From positions 3,000 through 66,999 of the forward strand of contig CAZGQD010000001.1 in NCBI GenBank assembly GCA_964527395.1: a stretch of 64,000 bases of DNA. The letters are read 5' to 3'. Of the stretch, positions 10,837 to 54,805 are shown one piece after another. The first letter of the stretch is position 1, and each line of letters starts with the position of its first letter. The stretch is from an uncultured Methanosarcinales archaeon (GTDB lineage: Archaea; Nanobdellota; Nanobdellia; Woesearchaeales; GW2011-AR9). A program made the translations under genes and the position numbers. The notes beneath the pieces are model-generated. The model was given only the letters and a program-made list of their open reading frames with translations. It did no database searches and was not told the DNA's origin.

Positions 10837-10920
10837 TGAAGGTGGTTTAAATTAGTTTTTTATATAAAGATTAGCACTGTCAAACTTTTCGAAATTGTAA
10901 GACAATTTCCAAACCCTCAA

Positions 10921-11026
10921 CGCTTTGCTTATGAGGTTATCGCAGGCGTGACCACTCGCTTTGGATTTTGCTCTTGTTGGTCGCAAAATGCTCGTTAATA
11001 TGGTCTTGTTTTGGATGGGATTGCCA
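10921..11026 (+). repeat. Family A structured repeat, copy A1
   Basis: Core atcgcaggcgtgaccactcgctttggattttgc...gcaaaatgctcgtt...ttgccagtagggga is shared with the copies at 20.3, 21.4 and 25.8 kb. Confidence 0.75.
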
Positions 11027-11098
11027 GTAGGGGACTGTGTTAATCTTTTATTTGTAATTTCTTTTTGTATGTGTTGAGTTTGTCTAGAATTTGGTGGT

Positions 11099-12687: not shown

Positions 12688-13407
12688 TTAAGTTGTGCAG
12701 AGTTGATCAAAATGTTGAACTTCGCAGATTAGTTCTCCAAGTTTGTCTTTATCAGTGAAACCTTCGTGAGTTTGACCGTTAATTACTAAACTAGGGTATT
12801 CTTGGATATTATATAATGAGATGAAAGTTTGAATCATTGGTTCTTCAGATTCTAGTTCAGTGTTGATTGGGAAGACTAGTAATTGATCACCTAAGAGTTT
12901 TTTGTAATATGTTAAAAGAGTTCCTTGATCTGCACAAGTTTCACACTTTTCTTGGTGAAAGTATAAAATTGGTACAACTTCTAATGAACAGCTTTCACTG
13001 GCTTTTTCAGACAAAAGATAGTATCTAATGTTGTCAAGAGCGTATCTTCTTTGAATGAGAAGTAGTTCTTCTTTTGGAAAGGCTTGGTTTCTTTCTTCAT
13101 AATCTATTATTTCTGCTAAAGATTCACTTAAATCTGAGACTGAATTTTGTAAGGTTGAGGAGAGAACAGTACAACTTTCTTTGTTTTGAGTTGTTGTTAA
13201 TAAGAGATATTGTAATTGAAGACTTAAGTATTCTACATCTTGAGCATCGTTTACTTCTTGAGCCCAATCATATCTTTGCTCTTCTAGGATGCTGCCTAAT
13301 GCAAGACCTAATAGGAAAATTAATAGGGTTATGATTCCAGCAACAATGTAACGTTTGGAGCTTATTTCTCTGAAATTTGCCCTTTTGTTTGTATCTTCTT
13401 CTTGCAT
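12688..13407 (-). CDS. Membrane-anchored thioredoxin-fold protein (CxxC)
   Basis: One N-terminal TM helix. The C-terminal domain has CETC and a cis-Pro-like YPSLVING motif. Confidence 0.5.
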   Translation of the reverse strand: MQEEDTNKRANFREISSKRYIVAGIITLLIFLLGLALGSILEEQRYDWAQEVNDAQDVEYLSLQLQYLLLTTTQNKESCTVLSSTLQNSVSDLSESLAEIIDYEERNQAFPKEELLLIQRRYALDNIRYYLLSEKASESCSLEVVPILYFHQEKCETCADQGTLLTYYKKLLGDQLLVFPINTELESEEPMIQTFISLYNIQEYPSLVINGQTHEGFTDKDKLGELICEVQHFDQLCTT

Positions 13408-18713: not shown

Positions 18714-20237
18714 GTGATGGGAGGAAAAAGAAAGAATTTTGGTTTTTTAGGTTCTTTAAATAAAGATACCGTTCTTTTTTCTTTAGTTGTATTTCTTTTG
18801 CTTTGGAATTTTGCTATAGTGGGAATAAATTTAGGTTTGACTGGTGCAGCTTCAGGAGGAGGTACTGCAAGTCTTTGTGCACAAGTTTTTGTGAATTTAG
18901 AAGCTATTTCTGATCAAGAGATAGTTCATACGTCTGGGTATATCTATAGAGTAAATGCATCTCAACGATTGAGTGATTATAATTATAGTTTTGAGACAAA
19001 TATTAGTTTTATTGATGTAGTTAATATAACATCGAATAGTTCTTTGATTTATTTTACTCCGAATATTTCTATAGTAGGAGAATATCATGTAAATGTTTCT
19101 GCTTTTGATAAAGCAAGTGCATGTCCTTATTATGATGAAGAAACCTTTACTTTGATAATTAATAACTCTGTTCCAGTTTTTAGTGGTACTATTGGTACTG
19201 AAATATGGAATGAAGATACAAGTAATACAGATATTGATTTATCTGATTATTTTAGTGATGATGATGGAGATACAATTACTTATGGTATAGAAGGAGCTGT
19301 AAACATTAGTGCTAGTTTTGTTTCTGGAGCTATGACACTAACGCCTGATACAAATTGGTATGGTAGTGAGACAGTGAATTTTACTGCTAATGATACTATT
19401 AATTTGACTCGTTCTAATGAGGTTTTGCTTGTTGTTGTTGAAACTGCTGCTTTTTGTGGTGATTTAGTTTGTGATTCAGGTGAGACTTGTAGTAGCTGTT
19501 CAGGAGATTGTGGAGCTTGCGCAGCTTCAGGAGGATCTTCTGGTGGTGGAGGAGGAGGAGGATCTTCTTCAAGTGGATCTACTAGTAGTAGTGAAACTTC
19601 AGACTCTGAAAGTGAATCTAGTGAGAGCGAATCTGATTCAAGTACTGAAGAAACTGGAGAAGAAGAATCTACAGAAGAAGCAAGTGATGAAGCTTCTGAT
19701 GAATGTGAATCATCATGGGAATGTACAAATTGGGAACCAACTGATTGTGATGAATCAGGAGTTCAAACACGTTATTGTGTTGATTTGAATAATTGTGGTG
19801 AAGAAAATTTACAAACAGAAGAAAGAGAGTGTGAGACGGGTGAAGAGTCTTTTTATTCAAACGTAGGGGATTGGTTAGATGAACTTTTTGGAGAAAGTGG
19901 TGCTACTGGACTTGCATTGTCTTTTGGAGGAGAAGAAATTAAGGCTGGACCTTTGATTTTAATGATTTTATTTGTGATCGGTCTTTTGGGCTCTTTAGCT
20001 GTTCTTAAGTTTAGAGGTGGAAGGAGAAAAAAGAGGAGTTTTGTTCTATCTCGTGAAAAATTACTTTTTATTCCAGTTGAAGGGAAGGATTATAGTATTG
20101 TGAATGTGATGACTGTAAGTTTAGGTTCTAAAGGGGAGCTAGCTATGAAGTCTGATTTTGTTAGGCATGAGGAGAATGAGGGTCATCCGCCTTGTTTAGA
20201 GCATGAACATGAGAATTCTGAAAAGATTAAGGGATGA
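18714..20237 (+). CDS. Large surface protein: Ig/cadherin-like repeat, Cys-rich modules, Ser/Glu-rich linker, C-terminal TM anchor
   Basis: Contains DIDLSDYFSDDDGDTITY...LTPDTNWYGSETVNFTANDT (adhesin-type domain), CGDLVCDSGETCSSCSGDCGAC, and CESSWECTNWEPTDCDESGVQTRYCVDLNNCG. TM helix LILMILFVIGLLGSLAVL is followed by RGGRRKKR. Confidence 0.6.
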   Translation: MMGGKRKNFGFLGSLNKDTVLFSLVVFLLLWNFAIVGINLGLTGAASGGGTASLCAQVFVNLEAISDQEIVHTSGYIYRVNASQRLSDYNYSFETNISFIDVVNITSNSSLIYFTPNISIVGEYHVNVSAFDKASACPYYDEETFTLIINNSVPVFSGTIGTEIWNEDTSNTDIDLSDYFSDDDGDTITYGIEGAVNISASFVSGAMTLTPDTNWYGSETVNFTANDTINLTRSNEVLLVVVETAAFCGDLVCDSGETCSSCSGDCGACAASGGSSGGGGGGGSSSSGSTSSSETSDSESESSESESDSSTEETGEEESTEEASDEASDECESSWECTNWEPTDCDESGVQTRYCVDLNNCGEENLQTEERECETGEESFYSNVGDWLDELFGESGATGLALSFGGEEIKAGPLILMILFVIGLLGSLAVLKFRGGRRKKRSFVLSREKLLFIPVEGKDYSIVNVMTVSLGSKGELAMKSDFVRHEENEGHPPCLEHEHENSEKIKG

Positions 20238-20269
20238 ATACTTTTTTCTTGATTTTTCTTTGTATTTGA

Positions 20270-20458
20270 GTACGTATTAAGTTACATTTTATATCTGAAG
20301 ACAGTACCGTCAGGCTTACTGCAGGCGTGACTACTTCGCTTTGAATTTTCCAAATCGCTACTTGGAAAAATGCTCGTTGTTTAGGTCTTGTGTTGAATGA
20401 GAGTGCCAGCAAGAGGACGGTGCTGTCTTCATAATAATTAACGTAACTTAATACGTAC
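20270..20458 (+). mobile_element. Family A repeat copy A2 carried on long hairpin arms: perfect 16-bp terminal inverted repeats flanked by an 8-bp direct repeat (MITE-like)
   Basis: gtacgtattaagttac (20270-20285) is the reverse complement of gtaacttaatacgtac (20443-20458). gtatttga occurs immediately outside both ends (20262-20269 and 20459-20466). The core gcaggcgtgactacttcgct...tgccagcaagagg lies between ~41-nt imperfect arms. Confidence 0.7.
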
Positions 20459-20643
20459 GTATTTGAGTTAGTTTTATAAATAAACAGTGTTATGGATAGT
20501 TTTATAGCCGAACTGAACATAAATTGTTTGTTCAGATTGCTGCATGAGGCCAAAAATATTGCAGAAGAGTTTAGATTCGTATTTGTTTCTTGATTCTTTT
20601 GTTTTTTGTGTTTGTAATGTAGCTTTTAGGTTGAATGGAGTGA

Positions 20644-21258
20644 ATGAATATGACAGAAGAAAATGCTGAGAATTTGTTAATTGATTCCAATGAATACTTG
20701 AAAACAGGAGTACATATTGGAACTAAATTTAAAACAAAATATATGAAGAACTTTATCTATAAGACAAGACCTGATGGACTTAGTGTTCTTAATTTGCAGA
20801 AAATTGATGAAAGATTGCGTATTGCAATTAACTTTTTATCACAGTATGATGCAAAAGATATTTTGTTTGTTTGTAGACGAGAAAATGGGTGGAGAGCTCT
20901 TCGTAAATTAAAGAAATTCACAGGTATTAATGTGATTAATGGACGTTATCCACCAGGAATACTTACAAATACAAATTTAGAGACTTTTATTGAACCAAAA
21001 GTAATGTTTGTATGTGACCCTTGGCCAGACAAAAACGCTGTTGTAGATGCAGGAAAAGCAGGAATTCCAGTTGTGGCACTTTGTGATACTAACAATGAGT
21101 CAAACAATGTAGATTTAGTTATTCCAGCTAACAACAAAGGTAAAAAATCAGTTGGATTATTGCTATATTTGATTGCACGTGAATATTTACGAGCAAAAGG
21201 AGTTTTGAAGGCAGAAGATGAGCCTGAATTTAAACCTGAAGACTTTATGGAAGAGTAG
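20644..21258 (+). CDS. rps2: 30S ribosomal protein uS2
   Basis: YLKTGVHIGTKFKTKYMKNFIYKTRPDGLSVLNLQKIDERLR and VCDPWPDKNAVVDAGKAGIPVVALCDTN are typical of archaeal S2. Confidence 0.9.
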   Translation: MNMTEENAENLLIDSNEYLKTGVHIGTKFKTKYMKNFIYKTRPDGLSVLNLQKIDERLRIAINFLSQYDAKDILFVCRRENGWRALRKLKKFTGINVINGRYPPGILTNTNLETFIEPKVMFVCDPWPDKNAVVDAGKAGIPVVALCDTNNESNNVDLVIPANNKGKKSVGLLLYLIAREYLRAKGVLKAEDEPEFKPEDFMEE

Positions 21259-21348
21259 ATTTGCTTGAAATATAGTGATTTATTGATTATTTTTTCTTGT
21301 TTTTTTGATATTCTTAATGACTTTTAGATGATTTTTCATTCTGTTGTA

Positions 21349-21524
21349 GAGAATTGTGGGTATCAGACTTAACTTCAAGCAAGCTTTCGGAACTTAGTTC
21401 ACATGTTCACTAAGTATCGCAGGCGTGACCACTTCGCTGTGATTTTTCCACTTTGTGAAAAAATGCTCGTTGTTTAGGTCTTTTGTTGGAGGGGAGTGCC
21501 AGTGAGGAGATACCCACAATTCTC
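21349..21524 (+). repeat. Family A structured repeat, copy A3, closed by a perfect 16-bp copy-specific helix
   Basis: gagaattgtgggtatc (21349-21364) pairs with gatacccacaattctc (21509-21524). Core atcgcaggcgtgaccacttcgctgtgatttttcc...gaaaaaatgctcgtt...gtgccagtgagga. Confidence 0.8.
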
Positions 21525-21740
21525 TTGGTGGATGAGGTTTTTTAAAGGTATTTTGAGGCTTTTGATCTTTTTTGGTTTAATTTGGGCTTTTGTTGCTTTT
21601 GGGTTAGGGTCTTTGTCCTTTGTGAGGGCTAGTGTGGGTTTTTAGCTTAAATCAGGCGAAATCTTTATAAAGCAAGTGGGCTCGAATGGCCTATACAGCA
21701 AATTCGCTCTAAATGTGGGTTTTGGCTGGAAAATTAGAAA

Positions 21741-25752: not shown

Positions 25753-25879
25753 CTTTACGCTCATCAGACTTAGTGCAGGCGTGACCACTGCGCTGTGATT
25801 TTGCTTCCGTTGGTCACAAAATGCTTGTTGTTAGTTAGATGTGTTGAGTGGGATTGCCAGTAAGGAGATGAGCGTGCAG
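25753..25879 (+). repeat. Family A structured repeat, copy A4
   Basis: Outer helix ctttacgctcatc / gatgagcgtgcag. Core agacttagtgcaggcgtgaccactgcgctgtgattttg...caaaatgcttgtt...ttgccagtaagga. Confidence 0.8.
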
Positions 25880-53260: not shown

Positions 53261-54597
53261 GTAATGTCATTTACACATTCTTCTGTTTCTTGAGCGTAAT
53301 GTTCAGCAGCACCTGCAGCAGCTTCAGCAATTTGAACATATCTTTCAACTCTGGAGTTTGCTTCTTGTGCTTCATTTAATTCTTCATCTGTTGGACCATC
53401 TGAAGGGTCAGGTTCAGGTTCTTCTGGATTTCTTGTATCATTATCATCAGGGTCACTTGGGAAACCAGGTTGTCTTATTCCTCTACCAATTGGTCTTTTA
53501 GCTCTTGGAGGAGTTCTTGATCTGTCTGGGTCATCATCATTTCCTGGTGGAGTCCTTCTACGTCTTCCTCTAGGCGGGTTAGGTCCTCTTGTACCGTCTT
53601 CATTGTCATCATCCTCACCAGGGTTGCTTTGATCTCCAGGTTGTCTTATGTTCCTATTATCGCCTCTTCTTCTGCCCCTTCTAGGGTTTGGGTTTCTTGA
53701 ACCGTCTGGGTCATCATCTTCATGATCGTCATTTGGTGGAGTTCTTCTTCTTCTTTCTCGACCAGCATCTGAACTGTTGTCTCTTGGATCGCTACCTCTT
53801 CTACCAGATCTTCCATCTCTGGAACCATTAGATGCATCTGAACCGTCTGCTCCATCTCTACCATCAGCGCCATCCCTACCGTCAGCTCCATCTCTTGCAT
53901 TATTGTTTGGAGGTAATTGTTCTTCATCTCCCATGTCTCTGACAATGATTTCGTTAGCTTTTTTGATGAAGTCGTCAATTTGGTCTATAATATAAGCACA
54001 AAAGTCTTCAACTTTTTTGATATTTGCTTGTAATGTAGTTACTTTTCTTCTGTAACTGTTAGCAGTAGCTTTTGGAATCTTTTTATGGCAATGTTTTACG
54101 TAGAATTCTAAGGCATGGTCACAAAGAGTGTGAACAGCTGAAAGGGCTTTATTAATTGGATCTCTAGTTAGTCTATGTGAAACTCTTACATTCCTTCTAG
54201 CTTCTTGTAATTTGTTTCTAATCCTGCTGGAAAGAGATTTTGCTTCATTCGTAGTTGAATCATCTTTCTTTTTAGATAGAACTTCAGTTCTTAATTCACG
54301 ACAAAGAGCGATAACTTCTAAAAGTTTTCTTTTTGCAATCATAAGATATTTCTTACGCATTTCTAATTTGTCTTTTTTTTTTTTTGTCTTTTTTCTTTTT
54401 TTGTTCCACTTTTTGAAGTCTTTTTCAGCTTGTTTTGCTTTTTCTTCTTTTTCATTTTTTTCTGCTTGAGTTTCGAATGATAAGAATTGGAAGAAATACC
54501 AAGCTGTGGCTAAAAAAGCAAAACCAATAGCTACATGTAAGAACTCAACTACTGTACCCCCCACTACCAGAAAGCCTATTAATTCCTCTGCTGTCAT
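53257..54597 (-). CDS. Membrane-hairpin protein, paralog A: TM hairpin, Lys-rich segment, helical domain, long R/D/G/N/P low-complexity tail, short helical C-terminus
   Basis: Start placed at MTAEELIGF by homology with 55425..56342. The first ~222 aa are nearly identical to the paralog. The tail has RDGADG x3 and two ~50-aa RRRRTPP...IRQPG modules. Confidence 0.55.
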   Translation of the reverse strand: MTAEELIGFLVVGGTVVEFLHVAIGFAFLATAWYFFQFLSFETQAEKNEKEEKAKQAEKDFKKWNKKRKKTKKKKDKLEMRKKYLMIAKRKLLEVIALCRELRTEVLSKKKDDSTTNEAKSLSSRIRNKLQEARRNVRVSHRLTRDPINKALSAVHTLCDHALEFYVKHCHKKIPKATANSYRRKVTTLQANIKKVEDFCAYIIDQIDDFIKKANEIIVRDMGDEEQLPPNNNARDGADGRDGADGRDGADGSDASNGSRDGRSGRRGSDPRDNSSDAGRERRRRTPPNDDHEDDDPDGSRNPNPRRGRRRGDNRNIRQPGDQSNPGEDDDNEDGTRGPNPPRGRRRRTPPGNDDDPDRSRTPPRAKRPIGRGIRQPGFPSDPDDNDTRNPEEPEPDPSDGPTDEELNEAQEANSRVERYVQIAEAAAGAAEHYAQETEECVNDIT

Positions 54598-54805
54598 ACT
54601 TGAAAATCGCCTCTTTTGAAATTTTGATAAGTGATGTTGAGCTATACTCAACGCAGTTAATTTCCGTACATTTTCATATACTAATATTAACTGCGTTTCG
54701 AGATACTGAACGAGTGCAAATGATTGCATGAAATGTTCGATTATTTTGTTCGTTCAGTATATTCGTTTTGATCAAAATAGTTTAGTGAATAATTGTGATC
54801 TGTTT

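What the first reader, a model, noticed from the sequence alone, without database searches (positions are those of the whole stretch)
20262..20466. One family A copy has textbook MITE hallmarks: 16-bp perfect TIRs and an 8-bp target-site-like duplication
gtacgtattaagttac (20270-20285) and its exact reverse complement (20443-20458) bound the element. The octamer gtatttga abuts both ends directly (20262-20269 and 20459-20466). Inside, ~41-nt imperfect arms (..gaagacagtaccgtc / gacggtgctgtcttc..) flank the conserved core. So at least this copy was mobilised by a cut-and-paste-type mechanism, or the core was captured inside another MITE. No transposase gene is present in the window, and the other copies lack obvious duplications.
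Basis: seen in the sequence. Interest (0 to 1): 0.6.

Follow-up and report, generated by a model that had tools for sequence, protein, structure and literature searches.

The report
Real MITE carrying swapped repeat core
The 189-bp element upstream of the ribosomal protein S2 gene of an uncultured marine DPANN archaeon is a genuine small non-coding transposon, and its inner part has been swapped for a copy of a separate, very abundant hairpin-enclosed repeat; this is an ordinary kind of element with an unusual, exchangeable cargo.

Summary
A 16-bp perfect TIR (20270-20285 / 20443-20458) is directly flanked by GTATTTGA on both sides. It is not chance. The same TIR (GTAsGTATTwAGTT) bounds 10 elements in this 1.585-Mb genome and one in a sister species. 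Ten of the eleven have a perfect 8-bp duplication (one is 7/8), and every duplication is different. All 10 in this genome are intergenic. A de novo scan for this architecture gave only 11 hits genome-wide, 7 from this family. The syntenic spacer of a congener lacks the element.

Every family member encloses a helix-closed unit, either family A (4 copies) or a second core, family B (7 copies). The window copy is a chimera. Its shell is 91-95% identical to three sister MITEs, but its core is only 57% identical to theirs and 90% identical to a TIR-less family A copy elsewhere.

Family A itself has 93 copies here, strong covariation, no Rfam match, and occurs only in this genus. Its TIR-less copies follow the sign of the GC skew (64/78).

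No transposase with matching ends was found. The genome's active 8-bp-TSD IS has different ends. Transcript data could not be consulted.

Verdict: a real MITE and a new member of a known kind. Its cargo family remains unexplained.

The parts
20262..20269 (.). Left copy of the 8-bp target-site duplication, GTATTTGA
20270..20285 (+). Left terminal inverted repeat, GTACGTATTAAGTTAC (complementarity runs on to 20288)
   Evidence: The same TIR recurs at 10 elements in the genome and one in G004.
20286..20295 (+). AT-rich left linker of the MITE shell (ATTTTATATC)
   Evidence: Identical in the sister copies C5, C18 and C22.
20296..20311 (+). 5' arm of the outer helix P0 of the enclosed unit (TGAAGACAGTACCGTC)
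   Evidence: repeat I2. P0 covaries across 45 copies.
20312..20415 (+). Family A core: junction CAGGCT|TACTGCAGG, helix P2, hairpin P3 (TTTTCCAA...TTGGAAAA), 3' domain ...GTGCCAGCAAGAG. The stretch at about 20325-20404 is the exchanged tract.
   Evidence: nhmmer found 93 copies. The mosaic is shown. There is no Rfam match.
20416..20431 (+). 3' arm of P0 (GACGGTGCTGTCTTCA)
20432..20442 (+). Right linker of the MITE shell (TAATAATTAAC)
   Evidence: Shared with the C5, C18 and C22 copies.
20443..20458 (-). Right terminal inverted repeat (GTAACTTAATACGTAC on the + strand)
20459..20466 (.). Right copy of the 8-bp target-site duplication, GTATTTGA
20538..20587 (+). Conserved block upstream of rps2 (contains CTGCATGAGGCCAAAAATATTGCAG). 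It is shared with relatives and lies between the MITE and rps2, so the insertion left it intact.
   Evidence: query 839-888 matches G001, G022, G013 and G025.
10866..11049 (+). TIR-less family A unit with a ~50-nt optional module inserted between CAAACT and TATCGCAGG. P0 is AAAGATTAGCACTGTC / GACTGTGTTAATCTTTT.
21348..21525 (+). TIR-less family A unit with optional module 2. P0 is AGAGAATTGTGGGTATC / GATACCCACAATTCTCT.
25757..25875 (+). TIR-less family A unit. P0 is ACGCTCATC / GATGAGCGT.

Best explanation
Window 20270-20458 is one insertion of a non-autonomous DNA transposon. I call the family MITE1. It is built as TIR (16-19 bp, GTAsGTATTAAGTTrs), a ~10-nt AT-rich linker, a helix-enclosed unit, a linker, and the second TIR.

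Mechanism. A transposase supplied in trans binds the two TIRs and joins the element to a target cut with an 8-bp stagger. Repair of the gaps produces the flanking GTATTTGA copies. The staggered cut follows directly from the TSDs. The DDE type of enzyme, and conservative versus replicative movement, are inferred.

Cargo. The family's ancestral cargo is the family B core, which is present in the sister species. In one G000 sub-lineage the cargo is a family A unit. In the window copy the central ~80 nt of that unit were replaced again, most likely by gene conversion or recombination with one of the ~78 TIR-less family A copies. The exchange would use the conserved junctions (GTCAGrC...TGCAGG and TGCCAG...GGAC) as homology. 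The mosaic is shown; the recombination mechanism is inferred.

Site. The insertion lies 24 nt (32 nt counting the left TSD copy) after the stop codon of an anchored surface-protein gene and 177 nt (185 nt from the element's end) before the rps2 start codon. It is upstream of the conserved rps2 leader block, so it is probably neutral.
For: The TIR and TSD are exact.

Eleven elements share the TIR, each with a different TSD:
- GTATTTGA
- GTTTTTTG
- GATTTAGT
- GAAAATTG
- GATAAGAA
- CTTCGCAA
- TTCCAAAT
- GAAAAAAA
- TTCCTTCC
- AAAAAAAC/AAAAAAAA (7/8)
- AAAAAACC (G004)

The de novo scan has a background of at most 2 hits. All 10 genomic copies are intergenic. C5, C18 and C22 are near-identical at different sites, which indicates recent movement.

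G001 keeps the synteny surface-protein gene -> rps2 with a 152-bp spacer and no element, against 406 bp in the window. No relative matches the element by BLAST.

Mosaic: shell 41/45 and 42/44 identical to the C5 copy; core 46/81 identical to C5 but 72/80 identical to the TIR-less copy C2_50083.

All 11 MITE1 copies enclose a P0 unit, A in 4 and B in 7.
Against: No autonomous element with these ends exists in G000 or its four congeners. Exact-word scans of the genome, metagenome and viral collections also found none. The genome-collection scan (18-mer GTACGTATTAAGTTGGCT) found nothing. The metagenome scan with the same 18-mer gave only unpaired chance hits. Two 16-mer scans of viral contigs also gave only unpaired chance hits.

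Seven DDE Pfam families were searched. In G000 they gave only a weak rve hit, an IS481-like IS with different ends and a 15-bp direct repeat.

The one active 8-bp-TSD IS of this population has ends GGCACAAT..., which are conserved across its family and unlike MITE1.

No exact empty site from a near-identical strain was found. The only other contig carrying the identical S2 protein also carries the element.

The TIRs also extend the hairpin of the enclosed unit and change in a compensatory way between sub-families (C4/A15 to G4/G15). A structural role for them therefore cannot be separated from transposase recognition.
Confidence: 0.8

Rival explanations
1. Nested insertion instead of recombination. 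Family A units are themselves mobile, by a TIR- and TSD-free route that involves single-stranded DNA. One of them jumped into the apex of a pre-existing palindromic MITE1 shell, which then carried it around.
For: The 78 TIR-less units have no TSD. They are co-oriented with the sign of the GC skew in 64/78 cases (p = 9e-9), independently of gene orientation. That pattern is expected for elements moving through single-stranded DNA at the fork.

Units sit at different sites upstream of rps2 in G000 and G002, and are absent there in G001 and G004.

G000 alone in its genus has a Y1/HUH TnpA gene.
Against: The similarity breakpoints of the window copy lie inside the unit (core only), not at the P0/shell border. 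That fits gene conversion better than insertion of a whole unit.

No empty MITE1 shell exists: all 11 copies hold a unit.

The Y1 gene is frameshifted in the assembly, and its IS ends share nothing with family A.
Confidence: 0.2
2. The whole 189 nt is a structured non-coding RNA gene. The 'TIR' is merely its long closing helix, and the flanking octamers are coincidental or part of promoter and terminator signals.
For: The core shows strong covariation: 83.7% of cells are paired, against 70.7% in shuffles and 36-46% in slid controls, and 25/34 pairs have double changes. The whole element folds with z = -8. Sister-species copies keep the fold through compensatory changes.
Against: Eleven elements share the same helix tip, each with its own 8-bp duplication. 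An RNA helix does not explain duplicated flanks.

The same tip encloses two unrelated cores, A and B. Most family A copies lack it.

Both strands fold equally well. G.T versus A.C counts show no preferred strand (75 vs 59). There is no Rfam match. Orientation is unrelated to neighbouring genes.
Confidence: 0.05
3. MITE1 is mobilised by the population's active 1568-bp 'ISNCY'/IS66-like IS (contig C63), despite the different ends.
For: That IS also makes 8-bp TSDs (CCTATTTT). It is polymorphic in this population: the empty site is at the start of C34 and an occupied junction is at the end of C52. It is the only DDE element with 8-bp TSDs found in the genome.
Against: Its TIR, GGCACAATT...GTGAGTGAT, is conserved in relatives down to 65% protein identity and has no similarity to GTAsGTATTAAGTT. 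No MITE with GGCACAAT ends exists in the genome.
Confidence: 0.1

Closest known systems
Prokaryotic MITEs (for example Sulfolobus SM1-4, Neisseria Correia/NEMIS, Coxiella QMITE2; review PMC10969869)
   Same: Small (187-360 bp), non-coding and AT-rich. It has TIRs and a fixed-length TSD, occurs in multiple copies, lies in intergenic sites, folds into a long hairpin, and depends on a transposase in trans.
   Different: No parent IS is known. The internal part is not a deleted IS but an exchangeable helix-enclosed module, drawn from families that mostly exist without TIRs.
Modular or structured intergenic repeats: ERIC (enterobacteria), BOX and RUP (pneumococcus)
   Same: The cargo (family A) is a highly repeated, imperfectly palindromic intergenic element. 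It has optional modules and compensatory changes that keep the hairpins.
   Different: Family A is archaeal and restricted to one genus. It has a conserved ~95-nt multi-helix core, and its orientation follows GC skew and not transcription units.
IS200/IS605-derived PATEs and REP/RAYT systems (HUH Y1 transposases)
   Same: The TIR-less family A units have hairpin ends, no TSD, and an orientation bias relative to replication. A Y1 TnpA gene is present in this genome only.
   Different: The window copy has TIRs and an 8-bp TSD, which Y1 enzymes do not make. No sequence link exists between the Y1 element's ends and family A.
DPANN 'ISNCY'/IS66-like 1.57-kb IS (contig C63; 813+ homologues in metagenomes)
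   Same: It has an 8-bp TSD, lives in the same host population, and has been recently active.
   Different: Its ends are GGCACAAT..., not GTAsGTATTAAG. It is therefore not the parent of MITE1.

Membership tests
MITE (non-autonomous TIR transposon) | Terminal inverted repeats | tested here: met
   16/16 perfect, and 19 nt at 95%.
MITE (non-autonomous TIR transposon) | Target-site duplication of fixed length, different at each copy | tested here: met
   Of 11 copies, 10 have a perfect 8/8 TSD and one has 7/8. All are different.
MITE (non-autonomous TIR transposon) | Small size, no coding capacity, multiple copies | tested here: met
   187-360 bp; 10 copies in G000 plus 1 in G004. The only ORF across the window copy is a spurious antisense 108-aa frame.
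MITE (non-autonomous TIR transposon) | Presence/absence polymorphism (empty site) | tested here: inconclusive
   The syntenic spacer of congener G001 lacks the element. However, at 77% identity no exact empty site can be aligned, and no near-identical strain without it was found.
MITE (non-autonomous TIR transposon) | Cognate autonomous IS with matching TIRs | tested here: not met
   None was found in G000, its genus or 40-60 relatives for seven DDE Pfam families, nor by exact TIR scans of public collections. This feature is commonly missing for MITEs and does not exclude membership.
IS66-family derivative | 8-bp TSD and TIR beginning GTAA | tested here: inconclusive
   The 8-bp TSD is met. 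The TIR begins GTAC/GTAG, not GTAA. An IS66 element of a relative has GTAAGCGTCAAATA. There is no IS66 transposase in G000 over the Pfam cut-off.
IS200/IS605 PATE | No TIR, no TSD, subterminal hairpins, insertion 3' of a fixed tetra- or pentanucleotide | tested here: not met
   The window copy has both a TIR and a TSD.
Any Rfam RNA family | Covariance-model match | tested here: not met
   There were 0 hits at gathering score in the window, and nothing meaningful at E <= 10 on the element or at E <= 1 on three other copies.

The most novel reading that the evidence does not exclude
The helix-enclosed units (family A with 93 copies, family B with 8) are not decayed MITEs. They would be a distinct, undescribed class of archaeal element that acts as a folded single strand of DNA at the replication fork. 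That would explain the 82% co-orientation with GC skew, the absence of TSDs, the covarying multi-helix core, and the reshuffling of stems, cores and modules. On this reading the units are propagated by an HUH-type or replication-coupled copying mechanism. TIR transposons (MITE1, MITE2) would have repeatedly picked them up as cargo, giving them a second, orientation-free route of spread.
Probability: 0.2. Interest if true: 0.75.

Novelty: new member of a known kind. Interest (0 to 1): 0.45.

Why it matters
The finding settles that at least part of the dense repeat load of this reduced DPANN genome moves by classical TIR/TSD transposition, although the genome encodes no matching transposase. That raises the question of where the enzyme comes from: an unassembled IS, the host archaeon, or a virus.

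It also gives a clean example of one MITE shell carrying interchangeable structured cargo, which is a route for spreading a structured module through a genome.

The cargo family is the more interesting object. It is structurally conserved, restricted to one genus, has about one copy per 17 kb, and is oriented with replication.

Tried and rejected
- **Rfam.** Searches at gathering and permissive thresholds found nothing. ARAGORN found no tRNA-like features.
- **Transposase hunt by Pfam.** Transposase_mut, ISL3, IS240/IS6, IS1595 and DDE_Tnp_1 are all absent from G000. IS66 occurs only in three distant relatives, with GTAAGCG ends.
- **Weak rve hit.** It proved to be an IS481-like IS on C47 with TGTAGTATCC ends and a 15-bp direct repeat, so it is not the partner.
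- **Contig-end ORF survey.** This turned up the C63 IS, which makes an 8-bp TSD but has GGCACAAT ends. Three relatives of it were fetched to see whether the ends vary towards GTAC..., and they do not.
- **Exact TIR scans.** Genome contigs gave 0 hits. Metagenome contigs gave 7 unpaired hits. Viral contigs gave 1 and 6 unpaired hits. All are chance level.
- **Look-up of the identical S2 protein**, to find a strain with an empty site. It found only the source contig type, which carries the element.
- **Strand test by G.T versus A.C mismatches.** There is no overall preference, so it cannot say which strand folds.
- **Y1 TnpA as mobiliser of the TIR-less units.** The gene is present but frameshifted and shares no end sequences with family A, so this stays a lead only.

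Full report
**1. The observation**

The sequence is as described:
- GTACGTATTAAGTTAC lies at 20270-20285, and its exact reverse complement at 20443-20458. Complementarity continues to 19 nt at 95%.
- The octamer GTATTTGA abuts both ends (20262-20269, 20459-20466).
- Inside, a second 16-nt inverted repeat, TGAAGACAGTACCGTC / GACGGTGCTGTCTTCA (20296-20311 / 20416-20431), encloses the conserved 'family A' core.

The window is C1:3000-66999 of a 1.585-Mb, 63-contig, 34% GC assembly. Earlier notes of this scan call it an uncultured marine DPANN (Woesearchaeota-like) archaeon. The source contig is JGI 3300007512 Ga0105016_1000181.

The element lies between a membrane-anchored surface-protein gene (18714-20237) and rps2 (20644-21258).

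**2. Is it a transposon insertion?**

I searched the whole genome for the TIR and the genus for a degenerate version. GTAsGTATTwAGTT bounds ten elements in G000 and one in sister species G004.

| Element | Length | TSD |
|---|---|---|
| C1 23269-23457 (the finding) | 189 bp | GTATTTGA |
| C5 1797-1983 | 187 bp | GATTTAGT |
| C18 563-749 | 187 bp | GATAAGAA |
| C22 14860-15046 | 187 bp | CTTCGCAA |
| C3 30084-30312 | 229 bp | GTTTTTTG |
| C6 65101-65329 | 229 bp | GAAAATTG |
| C25 7414-7687 | 274 bp | TTCCAAAT |
| C17 8376-8650 | 275 bp | GAAAAAAA |
| C22 ~13126-13339 | ~210 bp | TTCCTTCC |
| C14 31946-32305 | 360 bp | 7/8 match |
| G004 C7:42648-42867 | 220 bp | AAAAAACC |

- A solo TIR sits at C16 13036.
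- All ten G000 copies are intergenic, mostly 30-60 bp from an ORF end.
- A blind scan for any 14-nt TIR (at most 1 mismatch) abutted by an exact 8-bp repeat within 3 kb returned only 11 cases in the genome. Seven are this family and two are another MITE (GGCTCTGTAGAAAC, 143 bp). The architecture therefore has almost no chance background.
- Three copies (C5, C18, C22) are nearly identical at unrelated sites, which means recent movement.

**3. Related genomes**

- In 40 relatives, only the rps2 coding region and a short conserved leader block (window 20538-20587) match. None matches the element.
- The same-genus genome G001 keeps the gene order surface-protein gene -> rps2, with a 152-bp spacer that lacks the element and lacks any GTATTTGA repeat. 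The window spacer is 406 bp.
- G004 also has no element upstream of rps2.
- G002 has a diverged family-A-like unit at a different position, 28 nt before the rps2 start codon, in the opposite orientation. That is an independent insertion into the same spacer.
- At 77% identity these are not base-exact empty sites, and I found no near-identical strain lacking the element. Absence in the syntenic spacer of a congener is established. An exact empty allele is not.

**4. What the element carries**

nhmmer finds 93 copies of the ~95-nt family A core in G000, nearly all full length and 70-90% identical.

The typical copy has no TIR and no TSD. It is enclosed by a 15-21-bp outer helix (P0), which has these properties:
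- The 5' arm is purine-rich: AAGAnnnnnGCACTGTC ... GACrGyGCnnnnnTCTT.
- The middle of the helix differs from copy to copy by compensatory changes.

On a 45-copy alignment, a structure of P0, a short P1, P2 (nnCCAC(T)GAGC / GCTCGTGGnn) and hairpin P3 (AUUUUUnnnn / nnnnAAAAAU) gives:
- 83.7% of cells paired, against 70.7% in column shuffles and 36-46% when partners are slid.
- Double-sided changes at 25 of 34 pairs.

A covariance model finds the family only in this genus: G000 at least 58 (scoring cap), G004 8, G002 4, G003 3, G001 0, and none in 56 other genera. The sister-species copies keep the fold through changes such as CCAC/GTGG to CCAG/CTGG. There is no Rfam match.

Optional ~45-nt modules are inserted at one fixed junction (CAGACT | TAnnGCAGG) in about a third of copies.

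**5. Shell versus cargo**

All eleven MITE1 elements have the plan TIR - AT-rich linker - P0-enclosed unit - linker - TIR.
- Seven carry a different core, family B (GCGGCACGG...CTCGATGGGCGG). These include the G004 copy.
- Four carry family A.
- Family B also has two TIR-less copies with AAGAAA...TTTCTT stems.
- B is therefore the older cargo and A a G000-specific replacement.

The window copy is a further mosaic:
- Against the C5-type MITEs, its shell is 41/45 and 42/44 identical, but its core is only 46/81 identical.
- Against the TIR-less copy C2_50083, the core is 72/80 identical and the flanks are unrelated.
- The breakpoints lie inside the unit, next to the conserved junction sequences. 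This fits gene conversion or recombination with one of the many TIR-less copies better than insertion of a whole unit.

A second shell, MITE2 (276 bp, ends GATGCTGGGTAC... / ...ACCCAGCATC, nine copies), carries yet another family A variant. Five of its copies have perfect 8-bp TSDs. Capture of these units by TIR transposons has therefore happened more than once.

**6. The transposase**

None with matching ends was found.
- Pfam models for IS256/Mutator, ISL3, IS6, IS1595 and IS4/5 give nothing in G000. IS66 hits occur only in three relatives, with GTAAGCG ends.
- A weak rve hit is an IS481-like IS (C47 5931-7007) with TGTAGTATCC ends and a 15-bp direct repeat.
- A survey of contig-end ORFs showed that contig C63 (1568 bp) is a complete IS with ends GGCACAATT...GTGAGTGAT and a 432-aa DDE transposase. 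Its best Pfam hit is a weak IS66 match (E = 0.004). A homologue is named 'ISNCY family transposase [Nanoarchaeota]' at NCBI.
- In other assemblies of the same samples, that IS is flanked by the 8-bp TSD CCTATTTT. In G000 the empty site opens contig C34 and an occupied junction ends contig C52, so the IS is polymorphic and active in this population.
- Its ends are conserved in relatives at 65-79% protein identity and bear no resemblance to MITE1.
- Exact-word scans for the MITE1 TIR in genome, metagenome and viral collections returned nothing or single unpaired chance hits.
- The mobilising enzyme therefore remains unknown. An unassembled IS, or an enzyme supplied from outside the cell, are both open.

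**7. Mechanism and confidence**

- Shown: TIRs, 8-bp TSDs unique to each copy, multiple recent copies, absence from a syntenic congener spacer, and a chimeric interior.
- Inferred: a DDE-type transposase acting in trans with an 8-bp staggered target cut, and cargo replacement by homologous exchange.
- Not decidable here: cut-and-paste versus replicative movement, and whether the hairpin matters for transposition. The TIR differences between sub-families are compensatory (positions 4 and 15), as expected either for co-evolving transposase sites or for a helix.
- My confidence is about 0.9 that this is a true MITE insertion and about 0.8 for the full statement including the swapped cargo.

**8. 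What stays unexplained**

The TIR-less family A units are co-oriented with the sign of local GC skew in 64 of 78 cases (p = 9e-9). MITE-borne copies are 10/15, and orientation shows no relation to neighbouring genes.

The genome's skew is extreme, with a mean |skew| of 0.218 per 10 kb. This points to a replication-linked step or to orientation-dependent loss.

Counts of G.T versus A.C mismatches give no consistent folded strand (75 vs 59, with the helices disagreeing).

G000 is the only member of its genus with a Y1/HUH transposase gene (C2 ~54330-54760, frameshifted in an A6 run), and also the only one with the large expansion. However, the ends of that IS200-like element share nothing with family A.

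**9. Comparison and novelty**

The element meets the structural definition of a prokaryotic MITE (review PMC10969869). A large survey has already noted that a Woesearchaeal genome has one of the highest MITE densities among archaea, at 105 per Mb (PMC11602168). The kind is therefore known, while this family is undescribed. What is unusual is the cargo: an exchangeable, covarying, helix-enclosed module from families that mostly live without TIRs.

I rate the finding a new member of a known kind, of moderate interest. The cargo family is the lead worth following.

Noticed in passing
whole genome (for example C1 +0.228, C2 -0.309, C11 -0.43): GC skew is extremely strong: mean |skew| is 0.218 in 10-kb windows. 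It is not explained by gene orientation. TIR-less family A units follow its sign in 64/78 cases.
   Followed up: partly
G000 contig C63 (1-1568); empty site at the start of C34; occupied junction at the end of C52: A complete 1568-bp IS with ends GGCACAATT...GTGAGTGAT, a 432-aa divergent DDE transposase (weak IS66 hit) and the 8-bp TSD CCTATTTT. It is polymorphic in this population. It belongs to a very large family: 813+ homologues in metagenomes, mostly on ~1.6-kb contigs, labelled ISNCY in Nanoarchaeota at NCBI.
   Followed up: yes
G000 C2:54330-54760 (minus strand): An IS200/IS605-type Y1 (HUH) transposase gene with the HVH motif and catalytic Tyr, interrupted by a frameshift in an A6 run, with a hairpin-rich upstream end. 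It is the only such gene in the genus and is single copy.
   Followed up: partly
G000 C47:5931-7007: An IS481-like IS (rve domain, 27-29 bits) with 23-nt TIR TGTAGTATCCsGAwATTATTGCA and a 15-bp direct repeat TTTGTTTTAAGAAGA.
   Followed up: yes
G000 C22:14852-15499; C2:9249-9675; C3:68487-69101; C44:5382-5842: MITE1, MITE2 (276 bp) and MITE3 (143 bp and longer, GGCTCTGTAGAAAC ends) sit 8-9 bp from each other's termini. One example is CTTCGCAA[MITE1]CTTCGCAA-C[MITE2]CCAAAGAA[MITE3]CTTCGCAAC. This suggests insertion next to resident ends, or composite transposition.
   Followed up: partly
window 10882-10931 and 21370-21417; about 14 and about 10 further copies in the genome: Two conserved ~45-50-nt optional modules are inserted at one fixed junction of family A units, between CAGACT and TAnnGCAGG. 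Module 1 is ...AATTGyAAGACAATTTCCAAACCCTCAACGCTTTGCTTATGAGGT. Module 2 is ...TTCGAGCAAAGCTCTC..ACTTrGTTCA...TCACyAAG. Module 2 also occurs inside the family B MITE1 copies.
   Followed up: partly
window 20538-20587 and the rps2 upstream regions of G001, G002 and G004: A conserved leader block with the hairpin CTGCATGAGGCnAAAAnnnnTGCAG, preceded by ATAGCC, is kept across the genus and beyond. It is a possible rps2 operon regulatory element or promoter-proximal structure.
   Followed up: no
G000 C43:6378-8186: Two family A units with the same 5' module lie in inverted orientation 1.8 kb apart. They mimic a TIR/TSD element in the de novo scan.
   Followed up: no
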